Virus record (IMG/VR): IMGVR_UViG_3300037993_000081
Span: 1-55,699 of that record
DNA: 55,699 nucleotides
Direction: 5' to 3' (one strand)
DNA from: a virus
Lineage: Duplodnaviria > Caudoviricetes
The notes under the pieces were generated by a model, which saw only the letters and a program-made list of their open reading frames with translations, was not told the DNA's origin and did no database searches. Positions 11,680-43,294 of this stretch are shown one piece after another (position 1 is the first letter of the stretch; the number at the start of each line of letters is the position of its first letter). The position numbers were made by a program, and so were the translations under genes.

Positions 11680-11925
11680 TCACCGCTTTCGTCTTGCTTT
11701 CTTCGTGCGCCGCTTCTTTGATTGACCACTCTCCGAAAGCCCAATCGCAATCGCTTGCGCTCTCGATTTCACAACACGGCCATGCTTTGATCCGCTGTGC
11801 AAAGTCCCTTTTTTGAACTTGTGCATCTCGGTTTTCATTCTGCTACGCTTGGCCTTTTTTGACGCCTTTCTGCTCAATCTCGGCATACTCGCTAACTCCA
11901 CTTCGTTATAGAGCGGGTCGCTCAT
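11680..11925 (-). CDS. DUF6496-like small basic protein
   Basis: MHKFKKGTLHSGS..VVKSRAQAIAIGLSE motif with Lys/Arg-rich flanks. Confidence 0.75.
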   Translation of the reverse strand: MSDPLYNEVELASMPRLSRKASKKAKRSRMKTEMHKFKKGTLHSGSKHGRVVKSRAQAIAIGLSESGQSKKRRTKKARRKR

Positions 11926-13299: not shown

Positions 13300-13312
13300 A
13301 ATTTCTCCTTTT

Positions 13313-13726
13313 TCAATTACCACCACCAGTCCCAGAGGTGTCGCTCGTCGTAGGGTCCAGATACGTTATGGTCTGCGGTCCCTCCGCGAGCGCGTCTTGG
13401 ATTTTCACGAACAGAATATCAAACTCAGCGACCGAGTGCCCGATGAAGTCCTGCCCGATTATACTGCCAACAAGACAGCAATCCTTGGTATCCTTTGGCA
13501 AATTGCCCCAATGAATCTCAATGCCTATGTGACCAGGCACGTCGTTTACGAACGGCATCCAGCGGTCGAAGTGATCTGACCAGTCAATCGTGAGTGGATA
13601 GGTACCAGCCGAGATTGGGTTCTTCGGTTCCAGAGTGTAACATTCGTGCACGCCCCGGAAGAACATTTCCCCGAGCGTGCACTGCGTATCGGGCTGTTGT
13701 CGCTGCACCACAAGCAGGCTGTTCAT
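13313..13726 (-). CDS. DUF5675-family putative endolysin
   Basis: TLGEM..CYTLEP..ISAGTY..IEIHWGN..DTKDCCLVG; next to membrane-protein genes. Confidence 0.75.
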   Translation of the reverse strand: MNSLLVVQRQQPDTQCTLGEMFFRGVHECYTLEPKNPISAGTYPLTIDWSDHFDRWMPFVNDVPGHIGIEIHWGNLPKDTKDCCLVGSIIGQDFIGHSVAEFDILFVKIQDALAEGPQTITYLDPTTSDTSGTGGGN

Positions 13727-13998
13727 CTCGAATCAATGTTCTCCTCTTGTTTCGGAGACGGGGAGATATTGGCGTAGCTCGGCTCGTGAGACAACATAAA
13801 GCGATCCAGCCGTTCCGTTCGGGCGTCGATGGCCTGCACCTTATGCAGCATCTCGTTATGGTCATGCTCGATGAGCGTCAACCGCTTGTCGAATGCAGAC
13901 CAGCCGAGCGACAGGGCGACGATGAGTACGACGATGTTGATGACGGTGCCGATGTTGAACGCACCGTCCCACTTGATTGCCGAGCTTGTCCCGTTCAC
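13723..13998 (-). CDS. Single-TM plus coiled-coil protein (holin/lysis accessory)
   Basis: One hydrophobic segment then a heptad region; overlaps the endolysin start. Confidence 0.55.
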   Translation of the reverse strand: MNGTSSAIKWDGAFNIGTVINIVVLIVALSLGWSAFDKRLTLIEHDHNEMLHKVQAIDARTERLDRFMLSHEPSYANISPSPKQEENIDSR

Positions 13999-14010
13999 GT
14001 TTTGGCTCCC

Positions 14011-14166
14011 TTACTTGAACAATATTGACGCTACCCAAAATGCCAAGCCCGCGCTCACAAAGTTAAACCGCTGCGGCCACGGCGCTCCAACAGCGATCCA
14101 TGGGCCAAAGAACGTGCCGATTACAAACAGCACAAATGCAAAAACAAGCAATACGGTGGTAATCAT
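14011..14166 (-). CDS. 51-aa two-TM peptide, holin candidate (below ORF-track cutoff)
   Basis: MITTVLLVFAFVLFVIGTFFGPWIAVGAPWPQRFNFVSAGLAFWVASILFK with AGGAG RBS. Confidence 0.7.
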   Translation of the reverse strand: MITTVLLVFAFVLFVIGTFFGPWIAVGAPWPQRFNFVSAGLAFWVASILFK

Positions 14167-14178
14167 AGTGTTTTCTCC

Positions 14179-14322
14179 TTATTGATTCATGTACTTAAAC
14201 GGCCAAATTGAAGTGATTGCCGCCACGGGAGAGACCACGATCTTCTTCCATAGCGGAGCATCTGAGTTCCAAACTTCCGACCACGGCGACTGGTCTTTTT
14301 TAGCGTTCAGATCGTTGGTCAT
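14179..14322 (-). CDS. 47-aa hypothetical peptide (below ORF-track cutoff)
   Basis: MTNDLNAKKDQSPWSEVWNSDAPLWKKIVVSPVAAITSIWPFKYMNQ; AGGAG RBS; fills the gap exactly. Confidence 0.55.
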   Translation of the reverse strand: MTNDLNAKKDQSPWSEVWNSDAPLWKKIVVSPVAAITSIWPFKYMNQ

Positions 14323-14325
14323 CTG

Positions 14326-14766
14326 TTACTCCTTGTTAGCCGCTTGCTGCGCAGCGACTTGCAGGTTCGTGGGCGACTTGCTCGGCAACGGAGCAGGCAT
14401 CTGTGGCAAGAATCCGTTCAGGAATGGAATCTTGGTCACTGCCAGATCGACAATCGAGTCCACGGTATGCCCGAAGAAGAACGCGCACGGCCCAAACTGG
14501 GTAATTACCGACGCCACCCAGCCAAAGTTGCTCCACCCGAGGTAGTTCAAGGCGGCAGGCAGCAGTTGTGGCGTAAAACACATCCAGAAGATGGCGCTGT
14601 CGATGGCGGCACGTATCAGCAGGGGAACCCAGCACCGCTGCCAGAACTGTTTATAGTTGTTAGCGACAGGGTTCGGACCAGTGACAAGAAAGTACATACG
14701 CTTCAGCATGTATAGTCCCATGCCGACCGAGTACCAGAACCAGAGCCAGATCAGATGCGTGTTCAT
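14326..14766 (-). CDS. Multi-TM membrane protein, holin-like
   Basis: About three hydrophobic segments; AGGAG RBS before ATG 14766. Confidence 0.6.
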   Translation of the reverse strand: MNTHLIWLWFWYSVGMGLYMLKRMYFLVTGPNPVANNYKQFWQRCWVPLLIRAAIDSAIFWMCFTPQLLPAALNYLGWSNFGWVASVITQFGPCAFFFGHTVDSIVDLAVTKIPFLNGFLPQMPAPLPSKSPTNLQVAAQQAANKE

Positions 14767-14777
14767 CGCTGTTCTCC

Positions 14778-15173
14778 TTACTTCAAAATACACCCTGTTG
14801 CAACTAGGCCGCCCGTGTTTGAAATTGTGAATGTCGAGCACGTCACCGTAGTTGGAGGGCTAGAAAGCTGTGCGTAGCTGTAATCGTTAGCCGCTGCCGC
14901 AACCGCTCCCGTGCGCCCGAACACGCTCGTCACGCCACCGGCCCCGACCTTGCTCACAAGGAAGTATGCCGCTCCATTTGCCGAGACGTAATCGCCGTCA
15001 GGGTTCGATCCGTCTCCAGCAACGTTGCAGTGAATGAGAGCCTTCGCTGCCGGAGCAGGACAAGCGCTCAAGGTCGAACCGGGCGAAATGGACAGAGACG
15101 ATTGACTGTGGCTGAGCACGAGTCCAAAGGCCACGAGCAAGATCAATACCGCTGATGGGAACACAGTTTTCAT
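14778..15173 (-). CDS. Signal-peptide-bearing short fibre protein
   Basis: Sec-type leader; GVTSVFGRTGAV...DY tail-fibre motif; 4 Cys. Confidence 0.65.
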   Translation of the reverse strand: MKTVFPSAVLILLVAFGLVLSHSQSSLSISPGSTLSACPAPAAKALIHCNVAGDGSNPDGDYVSANGAAYFLVSKVGAGGVTSVFGRTGAVAAAANDYSYAQLSSPPTTVTCSTFTISNTGGLVATGCILK

Positions 15174-15183
15174 AGTCTTCTCC

Positions 15184-18100
15184 TTATCTCGTTGTCAATA
15201 ATATTACATCTCCGCGCGGATTTGGATTGCTGCCAACATCCGTCCACGTCACACAATTGTCAGTAACAGTGCCACCTAGAGTAGCACCATTGAACGCATT
15301 CCACAGAGCAGTTGGCATGTCACCAGAACCGTTCAAAGCGCTACTGACCGGGGCAACGTCGCATCCGTATGGCGAATGAGCGCTGCTGATTGCCGTAACT
15401 TGAAATACGTCTATTCCACCTTGTCCGGCCTGCGCTGCATTCGGTGGCAGCGGGTCCATTAGTTCGCCAACCAAATACGGATAGGAAGGCTGCCACGGAG
15501 GTCCGCAGAGGCAGAGCAAAGTTGCAGGCATTCCCAAGTAAGGAACATAGGTTGCTGGAAGGCTAGTAGGGGCACCTATGTTACCACCATTCGAGTACGA
15601 GCCGAACTGGTCGAACCACTCTGTCCCAAAAGCGGTGAACGTGCCATCAATTGCGCTGCTACTGACTTGCACGCTGGTCTCGAATATGTTGCTTGTGGCG
15701 TAGGCAAGGGTGTGGCCGAAACGCTTCTGCGTTCCTACGGTCGTGACCGGAGAACAGGCTGGCTGGCCAGCACCGCCGCATTGAGGCAATTGTTGATAGG
15801 CCGTAACCTCGCTCTGCCAAGCCGAATTTGCGAAAGGAAGGAATTGACTGGCGTTGTTGACCACGCCAATCAGCCATCCGGCATCGTTTTGTCCTGGATC
15901 GTAAGCGGCATCAAAGTGCCAGTCCCAAATCCCAATGATGTTGCATGGCGGAGCACCACTCGTAGTACCGTTCTGAGCATTTGTCGGATTCAGTGCAAAG
16001 ATGCCAAACACGTTCGGTTGCATCCCGTTGCCAGGATAGCCGGAGTTTGAGATTGTAGACGAGGAGCAGTTCGATCCCGTGATCGAGAAAGTGTACGGTT
16101 CCTGAGTGAATGTCGGCGGTGTCCCACAGCTACCGGAGTTTGGAGTGCAAATCAAGCAACTTCCCGAGCCACCTGTTCCGCATCTGACTGGAAGTGCGCC
16201 GTTGTTTCCAGAGACGTTGATGTTAGGGTAAGCAACGGTCATCACGCCGCTGGTTTGACCATATCCGCCCCCGGCTCCGCCATCTGACCAGACGTTTGAC
16301 TTACCAAGTGCGTAGTGTGGTACTCCAGCTTGGAAAGTTTGCAAATTGATGTAGGGATCAAAAGCGCCATTGTCCAGCGGACCGCGAGGCAGCCATTCAA
16401 AATAGTGATAGGTATTGCTGCAACTCGTACTAAGAATATCGGAATACCAAGGGGAGATGTTGATCGTTACCGCAAGTCCTGTGTACCAGACTTTCTCGTT
16501 ATGCACACCACCATAGCATTGCAAACTAGAGCCGTATCCTGTCGGTTGGCCGCTGGTCGAGCCGCCGCTGGGGTTCGTCAGAGCAAAAAATGGACTGCCG
16601 GTCGGGAAAGACGCAGAGGTCGGTGTTGACCAAGTAACGCCAGATGTGTTGCAGGCGGTGCCGCCGAGATAAGCCCCACTAGATAGGGTCGTACCGGAGC
16701 AGGTCTCGTTGGTCTGGATTCCACTTGCGGTGTTGAGCGTATAGAACGTTGGCGATCCGCTCACTGGATCAGAGGTGTCTGCCTCTATCGCCCACTGTGC
16801 CGAACCTTGACCGGCTGTATTATTCGAGGTTGTTGTCGCAGCGGTTATGTAATTTCCAGCCGCATTCGGGCCGTAGGTGTTGGTGGAAATGCTGAGTCCA
16901 AACTTCTTGTTGTCGCCACTAACTCCGGCAGTGACGTTCCAGAGATTTACCCCCGCAGCGTTGATCAAGGCTAATGTTCCCAGATTGGGGCCTGAGTTCT
17001 GCCACACCGCGCCACTATCGGTGATCGAGGTAGCGATGTCAGGGTTCACACAGGCATTTGCGCCCGACGCGCAAGCAACGTGCCCACCATTGGCATAAGG
17101 CGAAAATGTTCCACCCGCCGTCGTCCCGGCCTGTATTGCTTGCAGGACAAATGATGGTCCATTCTGACCGGACGTTCCCGTCCCGGCAACCCAGATTCCA
17201 TACCAGTGCTGATTCACGCAACTGCCGCCGGTACAGCCGCTCTCGACGACTCGGTTCCCTATGCACGGGTTCTCGGTCGGGAAACTGGCAAGGCTCGCTC
17301 CCGTCTCGCCGCCGTCGATTCCTGCCTTGTACACACAGAACCCGGTATTCGTGCTGACGCCGTCGCTGTTCGCTCCCGGCTGGATCAATGCACCCTTCGG
17401 ATAATAGGTATTTATCGCATACTGGTAAATCTCCGGGGTCGCGGTTCCCGGCAAATACATCGTGTGCTTCACGTACTGACCGAAGGTGTAGCCCGTCGAT
17501 ATGGCGTGTTCCGACACCGCGCTGCCCATCGGCAACGCATAGTAGAAATCAACTATCGGAATCGTCGTGTAGGTAAACGATCCATCTGGAACAAAAGTTG
17601 ACAAACCTACATGGGTTCCACCGAACACCACCGGTCCTGTGACGGTCGTGTTCGTTGAGTACTGGAAGTTGCTCGGCCCCCAAGCCCAGAGCCACGACGG
17701 ATTATTAAGGTCAAAGTCCGGCGACCCAAAGTTGAAGGAAGTGGTGTTAGACCCTCCAGCCGGATAGTCCGTCACGTCCATGTTCGGCGTGACTACGATA
17801 CTGGCGGATCGCGTGGCCGTACCAAAAGTGCAAGCCGCGCCGCATGTAATAACGTCTGCCGGACCGCCGAGATAAGTAGGAGCCTTGCAGAAATGGGTAC
17901 CCGTCACCGGATCGGTCCAGATAGTGGTCATCAGGGTACGAGCAACGTTCAAGAGCAGTAGGGTCGAATTGGAATTGACAAGTTGATAGAGGGAATTCCC
18001 GCCGATGCCCTCCGCAGCATTGTGGTTCAGGGCGTCTTGAAAGCTCCGGGCATCCGTGCAGCGCGTGTACGTGCTCTGGTTGTGGATACCAAGCCAGTCG

Positions 18101-18396
18101 AAGTACGACGGGTCGGTAACAACGGCAGGATACCCCCCGGAAAACAGATTACAGGAAGTCGATACGCTGTTCACCGTACAAGCCGTGCTCAGGAGTGGCG
18201 TGCTCGATCCAGTGTAGGTACCAGGAGCAGGAACAATTAAGTTGCTGACAATCGCGCCTCCGTAGTCTGGAGGTCCGAAGGTGATATTGTTGAGTCCCGT
18301 ATTACCCTTAATGGTGACGTTGCCTTTGACAGTTACTTGGCCCAAGCATACGACTGTCGATAAGGCGATAATGACGATGATGGCGAAGGTCTTCAT
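15184..18396 (-). CDS. Large secreted Cys/Gly/Thr-rich beta protein, putative receptor-binding or carbohydrate-active
   Basis: Start 18396 by ATGA overlap; leader MKTFAIIVIIALSTVVCLG/Q; many Cys pairs; WQPSYPYLVGE-type repeats. Confidence 0.65.
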   Translation of the reverse strand: MKTFAIIVIIALSTVVCLGQVTVKGNVTIKGNTGLNNITFGPPDYGGAIVSNLIVPAPGTYTGSSTPLLSTACTVNSVSTSCNLFSGGYPAVVTDPSYFDWLGIHNQSTYTRCTDARSFQDALNHNAAEGIGGNSLYQLVNSNSTLLLLNVARTLMTTIWTDPVTGTHFCKAPTYLGGPADVITCGAACTFGTATRSASIVVTPNMDVTDYPAGGSNTTSFNFGSPDFDLNNPSWLWAWGPSNFQYSTNTTVTGPVVFGGTHVGLSTFVPDGSFTYTTIPIVDFYYALPMGSAVSEHAISTGYTFGQYVKHTMYLPGTATPEIYQYAINTYYPKGALIQPGANSDGVSTNTGFCVYKAGIDGGETGASLASFPTENPCIGNRVVESGCTGGSCVNQHWYGIWVAGTGTSGQNGPSFVLQAIQAGTTAGGTFSPYANGGHVACASGANACVNPDIATSITDSGAVWQNSGPNLGTLALINAAGVNLWNVTAGVSGDNKKFGLSISTNTYGPNAAGNYITAATTTSNNTAGQGSAQWAIEADTSDPVSGSPTFYTLNTASGIQTNETCSGTTLSSGAYLGGTACNTSGVTWSTPTSASFPTGSPFFALTNPSGGSTSGQPTGYGSSLQCYGGVHNEKVWYTGLAVTINISPWYSDILSTSCSNTYHYFEWLPRGPLDNGAFDPYINLQTFQAGVPHYALGKSNVWSDGGAGGGYGQTSGVMTVAYPNINVSGNNGALPVRCGTGGSGSCLICTPNSGSCGTPPTFTQEPYTFSITGSNCSSSTISNSGYPGNGMQPNVFGIFALNPTNAQNGTTSGAPPCNIIGIWDWHFDAAYDPGQNDAGWLIGVVNNASQFLPFANSAWQSEVTAYQQLPQCGGAGQPACSPVTTVGTQKRFGHTLAYATSNIFETSVQVSSSAIDGTFTAFGTEWFDQFGSYSNGGNIGAPTSLPATYVPYLGMPATLLCLCGPPWQPSYPYLVGELMDPLPPNAAQAGQGGIDVFQVTAISSAHSPYGCDVAPVSSALNGSGDMPTALWNAFNGATLGGTVTDNCVTWTDVGSNPNPRGDVILLTTR

Positions 18397-20069
18397 TTGA
18401 TGGTCACGCTGCCTTGAACTTTCATGGTGCCATTCAAAGTTCCCATGTAGATGTACTGGTAAGCTCCTATGTCCCAAGCCCCAGTGGAAGGACGGGCGTT
18501 TCCCGCCTTGTCGTAACAAAGAGCAGGAATGGTCGAGCACAAACTGGTAAGGTTTGTACCAGATTGAATAGCCGGGGAACCCGCTTGCAGGGTATAACTG
18601 CCCGATAGTTTCGGATCGGAGAAAAGTCCGTGACAGTCATAACCTCCACCAGATGGACAAGTCCCGCCATTCAGCACTTGCCACGCTGCAAAAGTAGAAG
18701 CCCGAGTTGGTCCCGTGCCAATATTCCAGCCATTACCTTGTGGATAGCCAGCCGGACCCCAGTAAAGGTTGTAATCGGGAATGATGGTGTTGAATGCTAT
18801 GTTTTGGTTTTGAGCGATGTAATAAGTTAAGTCTCCGGAACCGCCAACGAAGATGTTGTTTTCATAGGTTAGAGGCTGTGCGACATTCATTCCGAAGATA
18901 TAAAAATGATACCCAAAATTTATGAACGTGTTGTTGTAATAGTAATATGGGCCTAGCAGATTAGAGACCGTGGGGTTACCGAACTGTATAGCCGAACCGT
19001 TATCTACAGTACGTCCTTCTCCAACGAATAAATTGTCAAAAACGTAACAGGACGTTGAACTTCCGTCACCGCTCGATCCATAAGTGCAGTACACAAATCC
19101 CGTGGGCGATCCACTCACAGGAGCAACGTAATCGCCATGAATGTAGTTCCGGTAAATGTAGAGCGTCTGTGATAGTCCTAACCCTCCGTCACCATTGGCT
19201 ATAATGCCATCCAAGTGATACGGGTTCCCTCCAGGATAAAACCAATTACTCCATCCCGTCATCGTGTTGTTGTAGATGTTGACGCTTCCGCCGCCGCCCA
19301 TATGCATGTGCCACGCGTGATCCGAGAGACTGTTGTTGTAGATGTTGATTCCCGAAGCTGCTTGTGTGTCAGTACAGGTTGTGGGACCGTTGGCGACTGT
19401 CGAGCCAGTCAATTGACCGTCGATTCCCGCATGAGCACCAATAAACGTGTTGTTGCAAAGCTCGATGTTAGTGACTTCGCTGCCTAGTTGCAGATCAGCA
19501 GTTCCTTGTCCGGGAACAGCAACGGTCTCGTCGGACGAGTTAATGTAGATGTTCTGGATCGTCAGATTCTTTACTAGAATGTGATCGGATACCGTACTGA
19601 CTCCCTTGCCGATAAACATTCCTATGCTGCTTTGCTGGTTAGCTAGCGAACTTCCATTGGCGGTATTCTGAATGATCCCTGTATTCTGTCCATCGACGGT
19701 GATGTAGCTCTGGCCCGCGATGTTGACCCCTCCTCCGCACGACACTCCAGTGCAGCCGTTGTTCACGCTGCCGTAAAAATACGTGGACTGGATGATCGCT
19801 CCGGTGTCGAAGTTGAGCACCAAAGGATTCCCGGAACTTCCACTCCAACTGTACGTCAATCCTTGACCATTCGCGGCGACCGTGATCGTGCCGCAAACCC
19901 AAGTGATGTCTCCGGGCGATTCGGCGGTTGAGTTCCACGTCGAGATGGTTATAGCTGTTTGCCCGTAACAGTTAGAGCCTCCCAAGAACGTTCCCGCGCT
20001 TTGGGCGACGTAGCGCTGTGATGCTGAAACTGACATGCACAACAACAACAATGTGATGATGTATCTCAT
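18393..20069 (-). CDS. Secreted parallel beta-helix (tailspike/pectin-lyase fold) protein
   Basis: Leader MRYIITLLLLCMSVSA; repeated IYNNT/YRNYI/YNNTF rungs; C-terminal GSPAIQSG...WDIGAYQY motif. Confidence 0.75.
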   Translation of the reverse strand: MRYIITLLLLCMSVSASQRYVAQSAGTFLGGSNCYGQTAITISTWNSTAESPGDITWVCGTITVAANGQGLTYSWSGSSGNPLVLNFDTGAIIQSTYFYGSVNNGCTGVSCGGGVNIAGQSYITVDGQNTGIIQNTANGSSLANQQSSIGMFIGKGVSTVSDHILVKNLTIQNIYINSSDETVAVPGQGTADLQLGSEVTNIELCNNTFIGAHAGIDGQLTGSTVANGPTTCTDTQAASGINIYNNSLSDHAWHMHMGGGGSVNIYNNTMTGWSNWFYPGGNPYHLDGIIANGDGGLGLSQTLYIYRNYIHGDYVAPVSGSPTGFVYCTYGSSGDGSSTSCYVFDNLFVGEGRTVDNGSAIQFGNPTVSNLLGPYYYYNNTFINFGYHFYIFGMNVAQPLTYENNIFVGGSGDLTYYIAQNQNIAFNTIIPDYNLYWGPAGYPQGNGWNIGTGPTRASTFAAWQVLNGGTCPSGGGYDCHGLFSDPKLSGSYTLQAGSPAIQSGTNLTSLCSTIPALCYDKAGNARPSTGAWDIGAYQYIYMGTLNGTMKVQGSVTIK

Positions 20070-20836
20070 GGTTTGAATGCCGCTACGCCGAGCGCCGAAA
20101 AACCGTATCCGTTTGTCCACGTAATCGACTGCGTACCGGAACTCCCGGCAAGGTTGTAGCCCACCATATCCTTAACTGATCCGACCACTGCTGCGTCGCA
20201 AATGGTGATGCTTCCAGTCACGGCGCAAATGTTGGCATCTCCACGGGAGTAACCTCCGACGATCAACTCTCCAGAGGCAGCGACGGAGCCGGTTGGGCCA
20301 ACGGCATTGCCATATTCCGTAGTCCCAAGTTGAACATCGAGCGTCGGCCAACTTGTGCAAGTACCGCTGCAACTAAATTCCTGAACAAGCAAGCCTGTAT
20401 AAACAGTTCCCCCAACTGCTGTTACCGTGATAGTTTCCGCCTTCGTTGACGATGCCGTCGCATACCAAGCACATTCTCCACTAGGACCATTGCTGTTGTA
20501 TAAGCAACCATCGGAATCGGCTGCGCTGAAAAGTTTTGTAAACGAAAATCCTGCTGTTTCGCTAATGGTCAAATCGGTAGCGACACCACCAATAGAAGCC
20601 CATACAAGAAGAAGGTTGCCGGAAGTAACGTTGCTGCCGTAGGCTTGGCTCAAACTGGATACTGGCCCGTTCTCGTTGTATGCTCCCTGCACGCGGGTGT
20701 GAGTAGGGGCGCCAACCGCAACCGCTCCACCAACGCCAGCCTTCCCGCCAATGCCAGCCTTCCCGCCAATGCCCTGCCCAAAAGCCAACATGAACCCGAG
20801 TAAGCATAGCGTGATGATTGAGAGAATATGTTTCAT
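20066..20836 (-). CDS. Secreted beta-sandwich virion-type protein
   Basis: Leader ending AFG/Q; SNVTSGNLLLVW domain resembles the N-terminal domain of 5875..7509. Confidence 0.6.
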   Translation of the reverse strand: MKHILSIITLCLLGFMLAFGQGIGGKAGIGGKAGVGGAVAVGAPTHTRVQGAYNENGPVSSLSQAYGSNVTSGNLLLVWASIGGVATDLTISETAGFSFTKLFSAADSDGCLYNSNGPSGECAWYATASSTKAETITVTAVGGTVYTGLLVQEFSCSGTCTSWPTLDVQLGTTEYGNAVGPTGSVAASGELIVGGYSRGDANICAVTGSITICDAAVVGSVKDMVGYNLAGSSGTQSITWTNGYGFSALGVAAFKP

Positions 20837-20845
20837 GTCCGTCCT

Positions 20846-23800
20846 TTAAGGTGTCGTATACTGTGCGCTTACGGTAAAGACATCCGTCGTGCAGGTTGCT
20901 CCTCCGGTCGAGATGTAAATACCGATGTGGTCTCCGCCAGCGAAAGTCTGCGTTTCTGCTTGAGTCGTTCCAGTGCCCTTAGTCTGGGTCGAAGCGCTCC
21001 CCGTTACCGCCGTGCCTGTGTTGGAAGTCCCGTCAAACACGTTGAACTGCGGCTGGGTTGAGCAGGTTCCGCCTAATACTGTAGTCACAGTGATGCTTGT
21101 GAAGTGGCCCGCAATGGGAGCCACGGTCTCAGCGAGGACTGCACTGACGGCGGTCGTTCCGAATAAACCGGTTCCGGCTGAGATCGTTCCGTTCACTGCC
21201 GAGATCGTTTCCGTCATCGTGCCAGTAGAATTTGTGAACAGCGAGAATCCGGTCGCCGGTGTCCCTGCTAAGATACGGAGTTGTGACGTAACCGATGTAG
21301 GGGCTTGTATACAAATCGATGTAGCCGCATTACACGGTGCCACCGCTGCGCTCGTAGTACCCTGTGGCAAATCAACGAATCCAGCCGTGGTTCCCTTGGC
21401 TTGAAATGCACCGGTCGGGAGTACGCTCGCCACGATTGTTTGTCCAGAAAGGACGCCAGCCGTCCATGTTCCGCCCGTGCCCCAGTCGGTCAGGTCGCCG
21501 CTGGTCGAAGCACCATTGACGTTCAGCACCGTCTGTCCAGAAGATGTGCCCGGAGCCGTAATACCCATCGTGATTGAAGTATTACTGTTCGAGGAGTTCG
21601 TGTTCTGGAAAACCCACGGTGCGGTTAAGTTGGCGGTTGCGATCCCCGCCCGCGTTACCGAATAAGTTGCGCCACCTTCGGTGATTGTTCCTGCCGCTGC
21701 CGCGCCGGTTAGGTTGTTTTCTACATAACCAGTGACGGTCGTTAAGGTTCCCGAGGTGGGAGTGCCTAGCGCCGGAGTGACAAGAGTAAGGTTGGTTGCG
21801 CTCAAACCAGTGGGCAACGTCGTCGATGCGCTAAGCGTGCCGCTACTGGATTGGACAACTCCGCTGGACATTCCAGTGATGATGACCGATCCTGCCGTTC
21901 CTGTCCCCCCAGTTCCCGCAGCTCCCGGAGTCAGGGTAACGCTTCCGCCGCTGCCGCCTGCGGTTGCGCCGTTTCCGCCTGCTCCGGCAGTCAGCGTAAG
22001 CGATCCACCCGCTCCGCCCGTTCCAGAAGTGACTTGTGCTCCTCCATAACCAGCAGTGAACCCAATTGCTCCACCTACCCCGCCCGTTCCGGAAGTTCCG
22101 CCACCCGCAGCGCCGTTTCCGCTGCCAAGAGCTATTGCACCGCCAGCTCCGCCTGCTCCGGTAGCACCGCCCGCGCCTCCATTACCTACGGTTAGGCCAA
22201 ATGCCCCACCGATACCACCGGCGTTCGCAGTTCCATTAGCCGCTCCGCCAGCGCCTGTAATCAAAGTGATCGGAGCACCAACGTATCCAGTGTGACTCGA
22301 AGCCGCACCACCAGCGGCTGCCGCTGAGATATTGATAAGAGCGGGCGCGTTCGCTCCTGTCGGACCCGCCGCGCCCTGCGTGATTTGCAAGGGGATGGCC
22401 GATGAGGTCGTAAGCGTGGTGATGTAAGCGATAGCATTACTCGCTCCCGTTGCCGCCGTACTCTCACCGATTGTCGCCCCCGTGCCTGAGCCGGTCAGGG
22501 CCACGTTGTCCGTAAGACCAACGATTGTCGCGGACCCCAGTTGCGTGCTGTTTCCGACTTTATCGAGTTTCCACTGCGATGTACTGCCAAGCTGGAAATC
22601 GGCGAGCAGCGATCCCGTGGCGGAGCCAGTGTTTGTCGGGTTCACCAGCAAAGCGCCGGGGAAAGTAATAGAGCCGTTGTTCCACGTAGGCGTGATCGCG
22701 ACAATCGAATTGCTCCCAGCCGTCGTAGGATTGATGGTCAGCGTAGGGGAACTGTACGAAAGAGTCGATACACCGTTGGGAGTGGCTCCAGCGCCCGCAC
22801 TAACCAGTATATTTCCCGATGTTCCGCAGCAGGACGTGAGCGTGTCAGCTTGAATTTTGCCCGTGCCCATCGACTCCAGTAGTCCGGCTACGGTCATATA
22901 CACGCCGTTAGCCGTGCCTCTGGAGGTTATCTGGATTGGCAACGCGGTCGAGGCCGATAAGGTTTGAACGTTCAGCTCAATGTCGCCGGAACCTGTAGCC
23001 GCTGAAGTTTCACCGAAAGTGAACGCGCTTTGACTTACTGTCGTCTGCGCCCAGTTCCAGACTTGAGGCCAGTTGCCGTTAGCAAGAGTGTTAGCGGCTG
23101 AGGCTGCGGTAATCCCCGATAGCGCACCGCCGCATGATGCCCATGTCATCACCGAGGCTCCGCCACCTTGGGATGTCAAACACTGGTTAGCGCTTCCTGC
23201 CGTGGTTGGCCAGTTCCAGTTGTAGGTTCCTGCCGTGTCTTGAGCGATCAGTGAAATAACGCCACTGGTTTTTCCATTTATCAAAATAGAACCTGTCGTA
23301 CTGGCGTTGCCAAGAGAAAGCGCGGTCGAGAACGACGGATCAGCACCGGTTGCACCAATAAGCACGGTGCCGGTAGGTCCAACGCTGATTGTGCCGAATG
23401 GACTCGATCCCTCACCGACCAATACGGTATGCGCTGTTGGGCTGCTAATTCCACTGCCACCGTTGACGGCTGGAAGGACTCCACTGACATCGCCCGTTGC
23501 CGCCGACAATCCGATGGTCGATTCGTAGTATCCACAAAGATTAGTAGCAGAAGCCGTGCATCCTGTTTGATTTTGCGACGTTCCAAATTTCAGAAAGAAA
23601 TTTCCCGAACTGGCATTCGTTCCTGCCGAAGCCGCGCTCGGCAGAATCGGATTGTATGAGGTCACTGTAGTTGGAGCGCCAAGGCCGATACTGGTCGTGC
23701 CGAGACCCCACGGGGTTGTACCCTGCCCGAGATAGGCAATGCCGGGATTGGCATTCGAGATAGTGACCGATGCAGCGGTAACATTGCCGCTGGAGTCCGA

Positions 23801-26341
23801 TGTAAATCCCGCGTAGCTCGTGATTGACGAACTACTGGCCGCAACAGCCACTTGGGTAGCCACCAGACTTGAGCCGGTCACGCTGCCGGTCGTACACGCA
23901 CCCCAGACACCGTTTGTGCCGTTAGACGTGAGGCACTGGTTATTACTGCCCCCGGTCGAAGGAAGTTGCCATGACGACCATCCAGGATTTGCCGAACCAT
24001 TCGAGATCAGGAATTGGTACTGAGTTCCCGCAGCCGTTGCTTGTATGGCACCCGTTGCTTCGCCAAGCAATACTCCATATTGAGTGAGTGTGGTTGCTCC
24101 AGTGCCGCCTTGGGCGACCGTCACCGTCGTACCCGAAGAAAGCAGGGTGCCGGTCACGTCTGGAATAGTGACCGTTGCCGCTACGGTCCCCGATGCCGGA
24201 GTGAGCGTCATCACACCCGTATTTCCACTGTTAGCAAAAGCCAGGGTGCCTGTAGTCGTGCTGACAACACCCAAGGTTGGAGTGGCAGTAAATCCCGGAG
24301 ACGCTCCAGCTAGCACTTGTCCAGCCGCGCCGGTGATCGAGATCACGCCAGTAGTCGCTGACAGGACAACAGGAGCCGTAGCAGTGGTCGCCACCGTGCC
24401 TGAAGTATTCGGCCAGAGAATAGCAGGGGTTCCCGTAACGGCTTGTGCCTTGACCGTGACCGTACCGCTGGTATGGCCAGTCATAATCAGCGATCCCTCA
24501 GCGGCGGCTGAGTTTGTGAGGGTCAGTGATCCAGCGGTAGTACCCGCAATCCCCAAGGTCGGAGTGGCTGTCCAACTGGAAGCCGAGGATGAAGTAGTGT
24601 TCGGAACTTGTCCGGCAGCGGCAGACGTGGCATTAGTACCCCCGCCAGCTATGGGAATGGTCGGTAGATCGCCTGTGGCGATGGCGGAAGCCGTGTAAAT
24701 GTGTCCGGTCGCTGTCGCGTGCAGAACGTCACTCGTGGTTGTGTCCGAAGAACTATCCAGCGCTACTCCACCTGTAGCGTTTGGAAGCGTAATGGTACGC
24801 GCTGCCGTCGCCGTGCCCGTCAGGTTGATGTTGTTCGTTGCCGCGCCGCCGATGTACACACTCGAAGCAGGGAGTGCCGCTGTACCAAGAGTGCATCCAC
24901 CGACCGTCGCGCAGTGTAGGTCCGTTGTAAACGCCGGACTGGTCGCAAATACGGCCACACCCGTTCCAGTCTCGTCTGACAACACACCCGCAAGCTGTGC
25001 CGAAGTCGTTGCGGCAAAGACCGAGAGGTTGTCTGTAAATACCGCCAGTGTTGTCGCGCCGCCATTGTTGTTGTTCACTTTCAAGCGATGCGCCGTTGAA
25101 TCTCCATAAAGGAAATCATTCGACGCTACGCCAGATGGAGCAACAATTTCTGTCAATTCCAGAGGGCCAGCCGTAAGCTGCAAGCCACCCGTTCCTGTGT
25201 AGGAAAGCAGTGTGCCGGTGTCCGTTAAAAGAGAGTTGTTGATCGTGGATGCTGCGGTGAATTTAGCAATTGCGTTGACTGTGCCGCCGCCCGTACCGAC
25301 CGCCCCGGTAGAACATGATCCCCAAACTGCATCCGTGCCGTTACTTGTTAAACACTGTGCGTTTGTTCCGCCCGTGGCTGGCACTTTCCAAGAAGACCAC
25401 CCAGGATCGGTCGCACCCACCTGAAGAAACTGATACTGAGTACCCGCTGCGGTCGCCGTCACTGCCGATGTTCCTTGACCAAGTAAAACGCCGTGCGCGG
25501 TTAAAGTCGTTGCGCCGGTTCCACCGCCGCCCACTACCGCTGTGCCAAATACGGGATCGGCTCCCGTTTGCCCAATTAGAGGGATGCCTGTTGTTCCTAC
25601 CGCCGTTCCGCTGATCGCACTTCCATTACCTTCGTTTAACGCTACGCCGTGCGCTGTCGCGCCCACGTTGACGTTGCAGGTTGAGCCGAGCGTACATGTC
25701 TGACCGTTCGACGTTACCACACTGTTTGAAAGACCCGCATTTGTCAGAGTACCGCTAATCGCAAACTGGACATTCGACCCAGAAGGATTCGAGGCGTTGA
25801 TCGTAATACCTGTTACCGCAGAGCCGTTCTGGAAGTTGATCGGTGTGGCCAGATTGCTTCCACCGTTAACGGTGATGTTGATCCCGCCGCCGCAATCTGC
25901 CGTAGTTGCCGACAGCAAACCGCTGGTTTCGCGGACACAAAACGGCCCGCCGCTCATGTTGGTGGTTGTGTTTCCCGTGACGGTCAATGTTCCCGGAAGC
26001 GTAACCGCGCTCGGGAAAGAGAGCGTCCACGAACCCGATAAGGTGATCGGCGAAGAACCCGTCACGGTAATCTGATTGGCAGTGCCAGCCAACCCAACGC
26101 TAGTCACAGTACCGGTCGCGCCGCCCGATGCTAACGCCGTCCACGTTCCAGTACCCGCCACAATGCTCTGGCACGCATAGACCGTGCCCGCTCCGTTTAT
26201 CAAAACTTGCAAGCGCACTCCCGCAGCGCATGATCCAGACGGAGCAACGGCAACATAGAGCACGTCATGCGATCCGAACTGAGCAAACGCGCACCCGGCA
26301 AACAAGAAAAGAAACAGCAGAATTAATAGAGTTTTAGCCAT
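20846..26341 (-). CDS. Long tail-fibre-like protein (~1830 aa) with Sec signal peptide
   Basis: Start 26341 MAKTLLILLFLFLFAGCAFA/Q; fibre motifs GTVTSVGL, GGTGATTLT..GVLLG, TTSAQLAGVLSDETGTG, LVTPALGTP; Gly-rich tract. Confidence 0.75.
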   Translation of the reverse strand: MAKTLLILLFLFLFAGCAFAQFGSHDVLYVAVAPSGSCAAGVRLQVLINGAGTVYACQSIVAGTGTWTALASGGATGTVTSVGLAGTANQITVTGSSPITLSGSWTLSFPSAVTLPGTLTVTGNTTTNMSGGPFCVRETSGLLSATTADCGGGINITVNGGSNLATPINFQNGSAVTGITINASNPSGSNVQFAISGTLTNAGLSNSVVTSNGQTCTLGSTCNVNVGATAHGVALNEGNGSAISGTAVGTTGIPLIGQTGADPVFGTAVVGGGGTGATTLTAHGVLLGQGTSAVTATAAGTQYQFLQVGATDPGWSSWKVPATGGTNAQCLTSNGTDAVWGSCSTGAVGTGGGTVNAIAKFTAASTINNSLLTDTGTLLSYTGTGGLQLTAGPLELTEIVAPSGVASNDFLYGDSTAHRLKVNNNNGGATTLAVFTDNLSVFAATTSAQLAGVLSDETGTGVAVFATSPAFTTDLHCATVGGCTLGTAALPASSVYIGGAATNNINLTGTATAARTITLPNATGGVALDSSSDTTTSDVLHATATGHIYTASAIATGDLPTIPIAGGGTNATSAAAGQVPNTTSSSASSWTATPTLGIAGTTAGSLTLTNSAAAEGSLIMTGHTSGTVTVKAQAVTGTPAILWPNTSGTVATTATAPVVLSATTGVISITGAAGQVLAGASPGFTATPTLGVVSTTTGTLAFANSGNTGVMTLTPASGTVAATVTIPDVTGTLLSSGTTVTVAQGGTGATTLTQYGVLLGEATGAIQATAAGTQYQFLISNGSANPGWSSWQLPSTGGSNNQCLTSNGTNGVWGACTTGSVTGSSLVATQVAVAASSSSITSYAGFTSDSSGNVTAASVTISNANPGIAYLGQGTTPWGLGTTSIGLGAPTTVTSYNPILPSAASAGTNASSGNFFLKFGTSQNQTGCTASATNLCGYYESTIGLSAATGDVSGVLPAVNGGSGISSPTAHTVLVGEGSSPFGTISVGPTGTVLIGATGADPSFSTALSLGNASTTGSILINGKTSGVISLIAQDTAGTYNWNWPTTAGSANQCLTSQGGGASVMTWASCGGALSGITAASAANTLANGNWPQVWNWAQTTVSQSAFTFGETSAATGSGDIELNVQTLSASTALPIQITSRGTANGVYMTVAGLLESMGTGKIQADTLTSCCGTSGNILVSAGAGATPNGVSTLSYSSPTLTINPTTAGSNSIVAITPTWNNGSITFPGALLVNPTNTGSATGSLLADFQLGSTSQWKLDKVGNSTQLGSATIVGLTDNVALTGSGTGATIGESTAATGASNAIAYITTLTTSSAIPLQITQGAAGPTGANAPALINISAAAAGGAASSHTGYVGAPITLITGAGGAANGTANAGGIGGAFGLTVGNGGAGGATGAGGAGGAIALGSGNGAAGGGTSGTGGVGGAIGFTAGYGGAQVTSGTGGAGGSLTLTAGAGGNGATAGGSGGSVTLTPGAAGTGGTGTAGSVIITGMSSGVVQSSSGTLSASTTLPTGLSATNLTLVTPALGTPTSGTLTTVTGYVENNLTGAAAAGTITEGGATYSVTRAGIATANLTAPWVFQNTNSSNSNTSITMGITAPGTSSGQTVLNVNGASTSGDLTDWGTGGTWTAGVLSGQTIVASVLPTGAFQAKGTTAGFVDLPQGTTSAAVAPCNAATSICIQAPTSVTSQLRILAGTPATGFSLFTNSTGTMTETISAVNGTISAGTGLFGTTAVSAVLAETVAPIAGHFTSITVTTVLGGTCSTQPQFNVFDGTSNTGTAVTGSASTQTKGTGTTQAETQTFAGGDHIGIYISTGGATCTTDVFTVSAQYTTP
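23885..25525 (-). repeat. Internal ~75-aa duplicated module in the long fibre
   Basis: GGTGATTLT..GVLLG...AAGTQYQFL...PGWSSW..P.TGG.N.QCLTSNGT..VWG.C at ~25310-25525 and ~23885-24105. Confidence 0.85.
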
Positions 26342-26699
26342 GATGAACCTCGACATTGACCACCGCCCCGTTCGCGCTGGCCGTGATGTAAATGTCATTG
26401 AGATTCGTGCTGTAGTCAGGCGCTTGCTGCACGTCTGTGTCTCCCGCCGCGAGTTCCTTCGCTTGGCAAGTGCCATCGGTCTTCACTCCCGCATTACCCT
26501 TGTAAACAATCGTCCCGGCATTGGTGTAAGACGCCTGGATTGACAAATAGGTAACAGAAGCAATGAGGATCGGCACGGTGGGAGTGGAAGGAGAAGCCGT
26601 CTTTACTGTGTACCCCGCAACAGTGGCTTGCGTGAACAGGTTATACAAATTCTGCGGCGTTTTCGTTATATCTGTGATCGTAATCGTGCAGACTGCCAT
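26334..26699 (-). CDS. Small virion structural protein
   Basis: Beta-rich 121 aa within the structural operon. Confidence 0.55.
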   Translation of the reverse strand: MAVCTITITDITKTPQNLYNLFTQATVAGYTVKTASPSTPTVPILIASVTYLSIQASYTNAGTIVYKGNAGVKTDGTCQAKELAAGDTDVQQAPDYSTNLNDIYITASANGAVVNVEVHHG

Positions 26700-26702
26700 G
26701 AC

Positions 26703-27713
26703 TCACCAACTTCCTACGTTCAGTTGTCCAAGACGATTCGTAGAGAATCCGTCTTGGGTCCAAGATGGCCGACGTTTTGGCCTGGTTAAGAAATCGCGAT
26801 GCAGGTTCGCGTCGATAGCTCGAATTTTCTTGAGGCATTCGACGTATTCTTTGCGTGACATTTCAGCGAGAAAGCGCCAATCTGCTCCCGATCCGCGTTG
26901 CTGGTTTTCGCCCTTTTGCGCTTCCTTGTACTGGTACAGAACTTCTTTCGCTCGCCACGTTACCAACTCTTCCGTGAGTGGGTAGGGAACTGTGTCTGTG
27001 GGATTCGTAAGTAAAGTCCCGCGCCGCTTGAATGTGAAGCTTAGAGGCCAGATTGACAAAATGTGAGGCCAGACCTCGTAACGCAGATAGCCCAAGGTGG
27101 CGCTCCCGGTTCTGCGGTCAACATCAAATGGAACCGCATAGGTTGGTAGCGCCGGTCCAAAAATGACGCGCTCGGGGTCTTCTACCGAAAGATCATCTTG
27201 AGACAGGTCGGTAAAACTTACATAGTCGCCATCGGTCGTGTCCCTGATCTCCACAAACGATCTGAAATCAGACACCGGAACAGGAAAGTACGCTTGATAG
27301 ATGTAGTAGTTATTCCCGGCACCGCTTGCCGGTTCCGCCCAAACTCGATCAAGGGTGAGGGTTGCAAAAGGGGGACTGCCTACCGCGTTGTAGCCGATGA
27401 TGTCATATAGGGCGTAAGAGGGGTTACGGAACTGTAGGTTCGTCAGTGGCGTGCTGGCGTTAGCCAAGGCCCAAACAGTCGTCGCAGTCGCGTCTCCGAT
27501 CACCGTAGCGCTCCCAGGAGTGGTTGTAACCGTCCCTTTGCTCGCCACAAGGCCGGGAATTAGCCAGCCACCAGAATTGCCAAGCTGAAAGCTCCACACT
27601 GTCTCGTCGTAAACCCTTCCAAGGGCGTCGTTGATCTTTGATTTGACGAGTTCCAGAGACACGCCGGGGATTTCGCCCTGTGCCAGAGACTTCGCCATCG
27701 TGATATACGACAT
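26703..27713 (-). CDS. Head-tail adaptor / tubular protein A-like
   Basis: INDALGRVYDETVWSF N-terminal motif and helical C-terminus; follows the capsid genes. Confidence 0.6.
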   Translation of the reverse strand: MSYITMAKSLAQGEIPGVSLELVKSKINDALGRVYDETVWSFQLGNSGGWLIPGLVASKGTVTTTPGSATVIGDATATTVWALANASTPLTNLQFRNPSYALYDIIGYNAVGSPPFATLTLDRVWAEPASGAGNNYYIYQAYFPVPVSDFRSFVEIRDTTDGDYVSFTDLSQDDLSVEDPERVIFGPALPTYAVPFDVDRRTGSATLGYLRYEVWPHILSIWPLSFTFKRRGTLLTNPTDTVPYPLTEELVTWRAKEVLYQYKEAQKGENQQRGSGADWRFLAEMSRKEYVECLKKIRAIDANLHRDFLTRPKRRPSWTQDGFSTNRLGQLNVGSW

Positions 27714-36448: not shown

Positions 36449-36460
36449 ACAAGACTCCTT

Positions 36461-43292: not shown

Positions 43293-43294
43293 TT

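What the first reader, a model, noticed from the sequence alone, without database searches (positions are those of the whole stretch)
14778..26341. Five tail-fibre/tailspike-like genes all carry Sec signal peptides: a candidate exported fibre system
Seen: five consecutive genes in the virion operon (starts 26341, 20836, 20069, 18396, 15173) begin with basic-hydrophobic-cleavage leaders. Their bodies have fibre motifs (GVTSVFGRTGAV, GGTGATTLT..GVLLG, TTSAQLAGVLSDETGTG) or a beta-helix spike fold, plus many closely spaced Cys pairs. Established: tailed-phage virion proteins normally fold and assemble in the cytoplasm without signal peptides. Inference: these proteins are exported and disulfide-bonded in the periplasm. 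They may then be added to the virion during or after lysis, perhaps on the signal-less adaptors (5084, 5875, 26334), or displayed on the infected cell as adhesins.
Basis: partly seen in the sequence, partly recalled or inferred. Interest (0 to 1): 0.85.

Follow-up and report, generated by a model that had tools for sequence, protein, structure and literature searches.

The report
Exported, disulfide-rich phage fibre gene cassette
Five neighbouring late genes of a soil phage encode tail-fibre- and tailspike-like proteins that all begin with secretion signals, which suggests that part of this phage's host-recognition gear is folded outside the cytoplasm, unlike in any well-studied tailed phage.

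Summary
The window is a whole 55.7 kb podovirus-type genome. Its only cultured relatives are the Acidobacteriota phages Tunturi 1 and 2. Five consecutive minus-strand genes (14778-26341, 21% of the genome) each open with a basic, then hydrophobic, then small-x-small leader, usually followed by Gln. Their start codons abut or overlap the upstream stop codons.

Once the leader is removed, every protein has an even number of cysteines (22, 6, 12, 28, 4). The same slot in four relatives, and in the cultured phage Tunturi 1, holds different genes that also carry leaders. Across these genomes 19 of 20 cassette proteins have even mature cysteine counts.

Among homologues of the giant fibre, the leader-bearing ones are Cys-rich with even counts. 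The leaderless ones are Cys-poor, have random parity, and include classical tail-fibre families.

Export followed by disulfide folding is therefore well supported, though only indirectly. Where the proteins end up is open. I favour late docking onto the virion after holin action (about 0.45) over free exported enzymes or binders (about 0.35). Virion proteomics on Tunturi 1 would decide. The searches I ran found no description of this.

The parts
20846..26341 (-). Gene 1: 1831-aa fibre protein. Leader of 20 aa (26341-26282; an alternative ATG lies 5 codons upstream at 26356). Then a conserved roughly 55-aa N-terminal domain with an invariant Cys pair, fibre repeats, a Gly-rich stretch and a C-terminal domain. 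22 Cys in the mature part.
   Evidence: N-domain conserved in 7 clusters, each with a leader; 2454 homologues at E<=1e-3
20066..20836 (-). Gene 2: 256-aa protein. 20-aa leader, a GIGGKAG repeat stalk, then a roughly 200-aa globular domain with 6 Cys.
   Evidence: look-alikes are viral hypothetical clusters; the single homologue P0004 also has a leader and 2 mature Cys
18393..20069 (-). Gene 3: 558-aa right-handed beta-helix protein, a candidate glycan depolymerase or tailspike body. 16-17-aa leader and 12 mature Cys.
15184..18396 (-). Gene 4: 1070-aa protein of unknown fold. 19-aa leader and 28 mature Cys. It is fused to a gene-3-like beta-helix in homologue P0002.
   Evidence: the structure model failed
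14778..15173 (-). Gene 5: 131-aa protein. 21-23-aa leader, 4 Cys, and the GVTSVFGRTGAV fibre motif.
   Evidence: weak phrog_16348 hit
26334..26699 (-). Leaderless 121-aa protein conserved in four relatives (47-63% identity). Its stop overlaps the start of gene 1. It marks the upstream border of the variable cassette.
26703..27713 (-). Leaderless 336-aa protein, a homologue of Tunturi_1 gp11 (annotated 'tail protein'). In Tunturi_1 the leader-bearing genes follow it directly.
12670..14766 (-). Probable lysis block at the downstream border of the cassette. It holds a multi-pass membrane protein (14326-14766), a 91-aa protein with a TM segment and coiled coil (13723-13998), a DUF5675 protein (13313-13726) and a leader-bearing 209-aa protein (12670-13299).
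   Evidence: The functional names are inference from composition and position.
5084..7509 (-). Two leaderless, Cys-poor fibre-like genes after the nozzle-like 951-aa gene: 544 aa with a viral BACON domain, and 264 aa. They are candidates for the classical, cytoplasm-assembled receptor binders.
   Evidence: (about 48% identity to the single-cell contig, against 74-79% for the neighbouring tail genes)

Best explanation
The block is a fast-turnover cassette of host-surface-recognition proteins in the late operon of an Acidobacteriota-type podovirus. It holds one giant fibre, a short stalked knob, a beta-helix glycan enzyme, a large partner domain and a small fibre piece.

Proposed course:
1. The genes are translated late, coupled to the head and connector genes (shown: gene layout).
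2. Each chain is sent through the host Sec channel, and signal peptidase I cuts after small-x-small, mostly exposing Gln (inferred from the leaders and their conservation).
3. The chains fold and form disulfides in the periplasm (inferred from the even-Cys rule).
4. DNA-filled, tailed particles assemble in the cytoplasm from leaderless proteins.
5. When the holin opens the inner membrane, or at lysis, the oxidised fibres and spikes meet the particles and dock by their conserved mature N-terminal modules. They then serve as receptor binders and depolymerases on the free virion (inferred; the least certain step).

I put steps 1-3 at about 0.85 and the whole chain including step 5 at about 0.45.
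For: Leaders and starts.

Leaders are conserved while the protein bodies are replaced. In L001-L003 and the single-cell contig (MCP and portal about 87-92% identical), the slot between the 121-aa gene and the lysis genes holds non-homologous genes that all carry leaders. The cultured phage Tunturi_1 shares the architecture: TerL, portal, MCP, p336, p434 and p951 are 26-35% identical, and gp12, 13, 14, 16 and 17 all have leaders.

Cysteine parity: mature Cys counts are even in 19 of 20 cassette proteins. In four of the five window proteins the total is odd and becomes even only when the leader Cys is removed.

Fibre identity: of the 150 best homologues of gene 1, I analysed the 133 that start with M and are at least 300 aa.
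- 68 have leaders: median 10 Cys, 51 even and 15 odd.
- 65 have none: median 2 Cys, 28 even, 24 odd, 13 with zero. Mann-Whitney p = 5.5e-11.
- 5 of 10 hand-picked leaderless homologues hit PHROG tail-fibre or virion-structural families.

Split versus fusion: P0002 is one 1654-aa protein with one leader that covers gene 3 (35% identity, E 5e-53) and gene 4 (36% identity, 90% coverage). In the window the two parts are separate genes and each has its own leader.

Docking-type conservation: the N-terminal 136 aa of the first cassette protein of the single-cell contig are 40% identical to Tunturi gp12, although the portals are only 28% identical. The N-domain of gene 1 recurs in 7 clusters with an invariant Cys pair.

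The beta-helix fold of gene 3 matches glycan lyases and hydrolases and the CBA120 and HK620 tailspikes.
Against: No experiment of any kind supports this, and SignalP was not run. A virion protein that must cross the inner membrane before joining a cytoplasmic particle has no precedent among tailed phages that I know of.

The phage already has leaderless fibre-like genes (544 aa with BACON, and 264 aa), which could be the whole receptor-binding apparatus.

In another viral contig (L015) a run of leader-bearing genes sits between the terminase and the portal, not in a tail module. That placement fits accessory genes better.

None of the five proteins hits a Pfam family, and only gene 5 hits a PHROG family, weakly. 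Only 2 of 10 leader-bearing homologues hit PHROG tail or virion families. tblastn of gene 1 and gene 3 against 50,697 phage records found nothing.

The beta-helix model is of modest quality (pLDDT 59.9), and gene 4 could not be modelled. The parity counts depend on a home-made cleavage rule.
Confidence: 0.45

Rival explanations
1. The proteins are exported but not part of the virion. They are periplasmic or released enzymes and binders that act on the infected cell's own envelope or exopolysaccharide. They might strip or mask receptors, cut nascent polysaccharide, ease the escape of progeny through the matrix, or stop progeny from re-adsorbing to debris. The phage's true receptor binders would then be the leaderless 544-aa and 264-aa proteins.
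For: Export signals and even Cys counts apply here as well. This reading removes the topological problem. The cassette abuts the lysis genes in the window, L003, L009 and the single-cell contig. In L015 the leader-bearing run lies between terminase and portal. Gene 3 looks like a glycan-degrading beta-helix enzyme. Bacteria have exported tailspike-like exopolysaccharide enzymes of their own, for example Pantoea WceF (search listing and abstract only). Leaderless fibre candidates exist.
Against: An 1831-aa fibre built from tail-fibre repeats, and a collagen-repeat protein in L003, are odd tools for work inside a periplasm. No outer-membrane translocation domain was seen, though no dedicated search was made. 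The mature N-terminal modules are more conserved between distant phages than the portal is, as expected for docking domains. Tunturi_1 has no large leaderless fibre or spike gene apart from the end of gp31 and the 124-aa gp33.
Confidence: 0.35
2. The proteins are conversion or adhesin genes. They would be displayed on the surface of a lysogen or a chronically infected cell to change its adhesion or its phage sensitivity, as the lambda Lom/Bor or T5 Llp type of exported phage protein does.
For: Exported phage proteins of this general kind are known (recalled). P. gingivalis prophages carry five unknown signal-peptide genes obeying the Gln-after-cleavage rule, which the authors read as surface modifiers (PMC10367356, passages read).
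Against: I saw no integrase or repressor among the ORFs I read in the window, though only some ORFs were family-scanned. The genes are translationally coupled to late structural genes, not set apart with their own promoter. Together they make up 21% of the genome. No lipobox or beta-barrel anchor was seen in the five. The Tunturi paper reports lytic infection cycles for its isolates (passage).
Confidence: 0.08
3. The leaders are not used for export. They would be hydrophobic N-terminal helices that stay on the protein, for example as oligomerisation or membrane-contact elements of a virion assembled wholly in the cytoplasm. Alternatively, the true starts lie downstream.
For: No signal-peptide predictor and no experiment was available. 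Hydrophobic N-termini can mislead.
Against: Each gene's ATG abuts the previous stop, and homologues conserve the leader's character but not its sequence. The hydrophobic cores are short and are followed by small-x-small. Cys parity becomes even only when the leader is removed. Leaderless homologues of the same modules exist and are Cys-poor.
Confidence: 0.07

Closest known systems
Classical tailspikes and tail fibres of tailed phages (P22/HK620 tailspikes, CBA120 TSP2; PHROG tail-fibre families 1980, 5668, 9942, 6002)
   Same: Gene 3 has a right-handed beta-helix body. Gene 1 shares fibre repeat modules with leaderless proteins that hit these PHROG families. The genes sit in the late operon, with conserved N-terminal modules and variable remainders, and they turn over fast between close relatives.
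   Different: Every member here has a Sec-type leader and a Cys-rich, even-numbered mature part. None of the five reaches a PHROG or Pfam tail family directly. Presence in virions is unproven.
Adsorption protein pIII of filamentous Ff phages (recalled, not tested here)
   Same: It is a phage receptor-binding protein made with a cleavable Sec signal and stabilised by disulfides formed in the periplasm.
   Different: Ff virions assemble at and extrude through the envelope, so export is part of assembly. This phage has a terminase, portal, HK97-type gene order and a lysis block, so its particle is built in the cytoplasm.
Bacterial exported tailspike-like exopolysaccharide enzymes (Pantoea stewartii WceF, Vibrio RbmB)
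   Same: These are beta-helix glycan enzymes with export signals. RbmB is among the Foldseek hits. WceF is known to me only from a search listing and abstract.
   Different: They are chromosomal genes of polysaccharide loci, single enzymes, not a five-gene variable cassette inside a phage structural operon.
Signal-peptide genes of Porphyromonas gingivalis prophages that obey the Bacteroidetes Q-rule (PMC10367356)
   Same: They are phage genes with SPI-type leaders whose predicted cleavage exposes Gln (passages read).
   Different: Those are genes of unknown function in temperate Bacteroidota phages, not described as fibre- or spike-like or as a consecutive block. The host phylum differs.
Exported accessory proteins in late operons (lambda Lom/Bor, T5 Llp; recalled)
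   Same: They are phage-encoded, carry export signals and lie next to receptor-binding genes.
   Different: They are small outer-membrane proteins or lipoproteins. Here the proteins reach up to 1831 aa and are built from fibre and spike modules.

Membership tests
Sec/signal peptidase I substrates | Positively charged n-region, uncharged hydrophobic core of about 8-15 residues, small residues at -3 and -1, no lipobox | tested here: met
   All five pass a home-made rule that flags 0.35% of internal control windows. The Cys in the leader of gene 1 (FAGC) is not conserved in homologues, whereas A-x-A|Q is, so SPI rather than SPII. SignalP was not run.
Sec/signal peptidase I substrates | Actual translocation and cleavage | not testable with these tools
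   Needs PhoA or Bla fusions, or N-terminal mass spectrometry.
Disulfide-bonded extracytoplasmic proteins | Bias to an even number of cysteines in the mature chain, with close pairs | tested here: met
   Window: 22, 6, 12, 28, 4. 19 of 20 cassette proteins across five genomes. 26 of 33 leader-bearing ORFs in L004-L016, against 17 even, 18 odd and 8 zero for leaderless ORFs. 51 even and 15 odd against 28 and 24 among fibre homologues.
Beta-helix tailspike or polysaccharide depolymerase (gene 3) | Right-handed parallel beta-helix fold | tested here: met
   The AF2 model shows a strand ladder, pTM 0.73 but mean pLDDT 59.9. Foldseek top hits are GH136, PL9, PL6 and GH28 enzymes (best E 8.9e-6, TM 0.43), with CBA120 TSP2 and the HK620 tailspike at E about 6-8e-3.
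Beta-helix tailspike or polysaccharide depolymerase (gene 3) | Trimer, catalytic acid residues, N-terminal particle-binding domain | not tested
   No multimer model or active-site mapping was done. The helix begins directly after the leader.
Phage tail fibre proteins (PHROG or Pfam families) | Significant match to a curated tail-fibre family | tested here: not met
   0 Pfam hits and 0 PHROG tail hits for the five. Only phrog_16348 (unknown function, E 4.5e-4) for gene 5. The link is indirect, through leaderless homologues, 5 of 10 of which hit tail or virion families.
Virion structural protein | Physical presence in purified particles | not testable with these tools
   The main text of the Tunturi paper has no occurrence of 'mass spectrometry' or 'signal peptide'.
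Lom/Bor/Llp-type exported accessory genes | Small outer-membrane protein or lipoprotein, separately expressed | tested here: not met
   Sizes are 131-1831 aa, there is no conserved lipobox, and the start codons are coupled to upstream late genes.

The most novel reading that the evidence does not exclude
Tailed phages of Acidobacteriota, podoviruses like this one and Tunturi 1/2 and at least one siphovirus, Tunturi 4, run a periplasmic branch of virion morphogenesis. Their receptor-binding fibres and depolymerase spikes are exported by Sec, trimmed to an N-terminal (pyro)Gln and oxidised by the host's disulfide machinery. They are then bolted onto finished cytoplasmic particles only in the seconds between holin triggering and outer-membrane rupture. 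This would give disulfide-hardened adsorption organelles for acidic soils. It would also make virion completion depend on the host's Sec and Dsb systems and on lysis timing.
Probability: 0.4. Interest if true: 0.9.

Novelty: new variant of a known kind. Interest (0 to 1): 0.78.

Why it matters
Textbook tailed-phage assembly is entirely cytoplasmic. Here a fifth of a phage genome, and the equivalent slot in cultured Acidobacteriota phages, is devoted to fibre- and spike-type proteins that bear every sequence mark of export and oxidative folding.

If they join the virion, this is a new assembly route with new host dependencies (Sec, signal peptidase, Dsb, holin timing). It would also change how receptor-binding proteins should be predicted in soil viromes. 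If they do not join the virion, phages of a dominant soil phylum secrete large, rapidly changing batteries of glycan-binding and glycan-cutting proteins. That matters for exopolysaccharide turnover and for phage-host arms races in soil.

Either way the question can be tested directly, because Tunturi 1, 2 and 4 and their hosts are in culture.

Tried and rejected
- **Family and database scans of the five proteins gave almost nothing.** This covers Pfam and PHROG, phmmer against PDB sequences for genes 1, 3 and 4, and tblastn of genes 1 and 3 against 50,697 phage records. blastn of the head region against the phage records also found nothing.
- **Gene 4.** Only 3 homologues exist among 5.8 billion proteins. 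The ESM Atlas gave no usable hit. The AlphaFold2 model from 4 sequences was useless (pLDDT 26.5), so I make no statement about its fold.
- **Complex prediction.** I tested the 121-aa upstream protein against residues 22-130 of gene 1. The result was 'no answer', score 0.00. This counts as no evidence either way, and the adaptor idea remains untested.
- **Host rules from the single-cell genome.** The genome carrying a related phage contig did not help. Its other contigs have 42-47% GC, and only 2 of 36 leader-like ORFs have Gln at +1. I rejected it as a proxy for the host.
- **'All Acidobacteriota phage tail genes carry leaders': rejected.** The main tail module of the Tunturi_4 siphovirus is leaderless. 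Its separate fibre cluster is mixed: gp111 and gp112 are leaderless, gp113 and gp114 carry leaders.
- **A shared N-terminal motif.** The similarity between leader-bearing proteins (L003, Tunturi gp13) and the leaderless Tunturi_4 gp112 is weak (pairwise E 0.001 and 0.07). I do not rest on it.
- **Cluster names.** A look-up for ten leader-bearing homologues gave only 'hypothetical protein'.
- **Literature.** Six searches found no description of signal peptides on tail-fibre or tailspike genes of tailed phages. The AlgoCIS paper and the rumen phage paper looked promising but turned out to be irrelevant. Subscription journals are not covered, and supplements were closed, including the annotation tables of the Tunturi paper, which might list signal peptides. 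Tunturi_3 and Tunturi_5 were not examined.

Full report
**What the window is.** The window is a complete virus record of 55,699 bp with no terminal repeat and no tRNA genes. Nearly all long ORFs lie on the minus strand. tblastn of the 684-aa protein against 50,697 phage records finds only Tunturiibacter phages Tunturi_1 and Tunturi_2, at 27.8% identity over 92%, annotated as portal. These are podoviruses isolated on an Acidobacteriota host (PMC11924767, passages read).

A local tblastn shows that Tunturi_1 shares the window's gene order:
- terminase (39352-41511);
- portal (31820-33874);
- major capsid protein (28770-30035);
- a 336-aa protein matching gp11 'tail protein' (26703-27713);
- later, a 434-aa and a 951-aa tail protein.

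Between the 336-aa and 121-aa genes and the 434-aa gene lie the five genes of the finding, followed by a probable lysis block. That block holds membrane proteins, a DUF5675 protein and a leader-bearing 209-aa protein.

**The observation.** Each product opens with one or two basic residues, an uncharged hydrophobic core, and small residues at -3 and -1. In each case Gln sits at the predicted +1 position or within two residues after it.

No signal-peptide program was on hand, so I wrote a simple rule. It flags 8 of 45 curated genes, the five among them, and 35 of 9,862 internal control windows. Over all ORFs of at least 80 aa it flags 11. Three of those I regard as doubtful ORFs, and three are further small genes with starts at 13299, 43298 and 44876.

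The Cys inside the leader of gene 1 forms a lipobox-like FAGC. That Cys is not conserved in homologues, whereas A-x-A|Q is, so I read the leaders as signal peptidase I type.

**Cysteines.** The totals are 23, 7, 13, 29 and 4. Four of the five leaders contain one Cys, so the mature chains hold 22, 6, 12, 28 and 4, all even. Many pairs are 1-16 residues apart. The leaderless proteins of the window are poorer in Cys overall: 1.22 against 2.05 per 100 residues.

**What the proteins look like.** Pfam and PHROG give nothing for the five except a weak PHROG of unknown function for gene 5. PDB sequences also give nothing.
- Gene 3, modelled from ten sequences, is a strand ladder (pLDDT 59.9, pTM 0.73). 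Its best structural matches are right-handed beta-helix glycan hydrolases and lyases. The CBA120 TSP2 and HK620 tailspikes appear further down the list.
- Gene 1 (first 1200 aa) has 2,454 homologues at E<=1e-3 among 1.84 billion representatives.
- The globular part of gene 2 resembles only viral hypothetical clusters.
- Gene 4 has three homologues and could not be modelled.

**Relatives keep the leaders and swap the bodies.** Three IMG/VR contigs (L001-L003) and a contig in a single-cell genome share capsid and portal at about 87-92% identity, the 336-aa protein at 69-81% and the 121-aa protein at 47-63%. After the 121-aa gene, homology largely stops. Only the first 69 residues of gene 1 (64% to L003), some fibre repeats and a few domains recur. 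Yet every gene in that slot starts with a leader:
- four in L003;
- six in the single-cell contig;
- the first gene in each of L001 and L002, which then run off the locus.

Tunturi_1 gp12, 13, 14, 16 and 17, in the same slot, also have leaders. Across the window, L003, the single-cell contig and Tunturi_1, 19 of 20 cassette proteins have an even mature Cys count. The exception is the 149-aa Tunturi gp16.

**Two flavours of the same modules.** Of the 150 best homologues of gene 1, I kept the 133 that begin with M and are at least 300 aa; the other 17 were dropped.
- 68 have a leader-like N-terminus: median 10 Cys (1.14 per 100 aa), 51 even, 15 odd, 2 with zero.
- 65 have none: median 2 Cys (0.24 per 100 aa), 28 even, 24 odd, 13 with zero.
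- Mann-Whitney p = 5.5e-11. Binomial p = 1e-5 for the leader set and 0.68 for the leaderless set.

Five of ten hand-picked leaderless homologues hit PHROG tail-fibre or virion-structural families. Two of ten hand-picked leader-bearing ones do. So the window's fibre is built from modules that also serve classical, cytoplasm-made tail fibres. In one flavour the leader and a high, paired Cys content travel together.

**Beyond this lineage.** All 11 homologues of gene 3 whose N-terminus lies on the locus carry leaders. One further homologue is cut by the contig end, and one is only a 92-codon frame. Their neighbours are runs of leader-bearing large ORFs: six in L009, five in L013 and four in L008. 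In these loci 26 of 33 leader-bearing ORFs have even Cys counts, against 17 even, 18 odd and 8 zero for leaderless ORFs.

In L009 the run is followed by a spanin-like gene. In L015 it lies between terminase and portal. The siphovirus Tunturi_4 has a leaderless main tail module. It also has a separate fibre cluster in which gp111 and gp112 lack leaders and gp113 and gp114 have them.

**Split and fusion.** Homologue P0002 (1654 aa, one leader) aligns with gene 3 over its first 501 residues and with gene 4 over the rest. In the window the two parts are separate genes, each with its own leader. This argues that the leader is required by each polypeptide.

**Mechanism.** Export through Sec, cleavage by signal peptidase I and disulfide formation in the periplasm is the simplest reading of these facts. 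I put it at about 0.85. Acidobacteriota being diderm is established knowledge, not tested here.

The destination is open. I favour docking on the finished particle after the holin opens the inner membrane, at about 0.45 for the whole chain, for four reasons:
- The proteins are fibre and spike modules.
- They form the most variable block of the late operon.
- Their mature N-terminal modules are conserved across distant phages, at 40% identity where the portals share 28%.
- Tunturi_1 has hardly any other candidate receptor binder.

That P22 tailspikes and T4 fibres can be added to particles in vitro is recalled knowledge. It makes late docking physically plausible.

The main rival, at about 0.35, is that the proteins are exported but never join the virion and act on the cell's own envelope or exopolysaccharide. 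Three observations favour it: the leaderless 544-aa BACON and 264-aa proteins, the position next to the lysis genes, and the L015 layout.

**Comparison with print.** The main text of the Tunturi paper contains neither 'signal peptide' nor 'mass spectrometry'. A P. gingivalis prophage study reports five unknown signal-peptide genes with Gln at +1. The paper defining that rule calls it Bacteroidetes-specific and does not mention Acidobacteria. Six full-text searches found no report of signal peptides on tail-fibre or tailspike genes of tailed phages. Supplements and subscription journals were out of reach.

**Limits.** All support for export is indirect. The cleavage rule is home-made. The sets of ten proteins sent to PHROG were hand-picked. 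Host assignment rests on 26-35% identical isolates. The complex prediction gave no verdict and is reported only under things tried.

Noticed in passing
window 33905-38646 (- strand); L015 5987-14543: Between the terminase and the portal the window carries two glycosyltransferases, a nucleotide-sugar epimerase and a methyltransferase-like gene. In L015 the same terminase-portal slot is filled by leader-bearing ORFs. Virion glycosylation or host polysaccharide modification are both possible.
   Followed up: partly
window leaders at 26282, 20777, 20019, 18340, 15105, 13249; Tunturi_1 gp12, 13, 16, 17 (L021): Predicted cleavage exposes Gln in most leaders. It does so in 27 of 61 leader-bearing fibre homologues, in 11 of 33 in L004-L016 and in 4 of 5 in Tunturi_1. 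The 'Q-rule' is described as Bacteroidetes-specific. Acidobacteriota or their phages may follow it too.
   Followed up: partly
window 12670-13299 (-): A leader-bearing 209-aa protein with a Gly- and aromatic-rich body and a Lys-rich C-terminal helix sits next to the DUF5675 gene. It could be an outer-membrane lysis factor or a Lom-like protein. No family hit.
   Followed up: no
window 42897-43298 and 44406-44876 (-): Two further small leader-bearing ORFs lie in the early or middle region. The second has 7 Cys in the mature part.
   Followed up: no
G001 contigs (L023-L036) versus G001:C5 (L017, L019, L020): The single-cell genome that carries a close relative of this phage has 42-47% GC on its other large contigs, and its leaders are of a different style. 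The phage contig may be a co-sorted particle rather than an infection of that cell.
   Followed up: partly
window about 18330-18425 (junction of genes 3 and 4): The end of gene 3 (…KVQGSVTIK) and the mature start of gene 4 (QVTVKGNVTIKGN…) resemble each other on either side of the gene-4 leader. P0002 is the fused form. The split or fusion event may have involved a short duplication.
   Followed up: no
window 5875-7509 versus L021 31690-31977: The last 97 residues of the 544-aa BACON protein match the C-terminal end of Tunturi_1 gp31, whose front part matches the window's 951-aa protein. This looks like another split or fusion, here at the nozzle-fibre boundary.
   Followed up: no
window 11922-12683 (-); L009 18313-19089: A phrog_19005 protein (unknown function) with a GDCTCAC motif is conserved beside the lysis genes in the window and in the otherwise unrelated L009. 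The resemblance to a cysteine-peptidase motif is my recollection only.
   Followed up: no
window 50619-51413 (+): A 264-aa ORF carries a long run of SV(R/W/G)(D/A)SV repeats. Not examined further.
   Followed up: no
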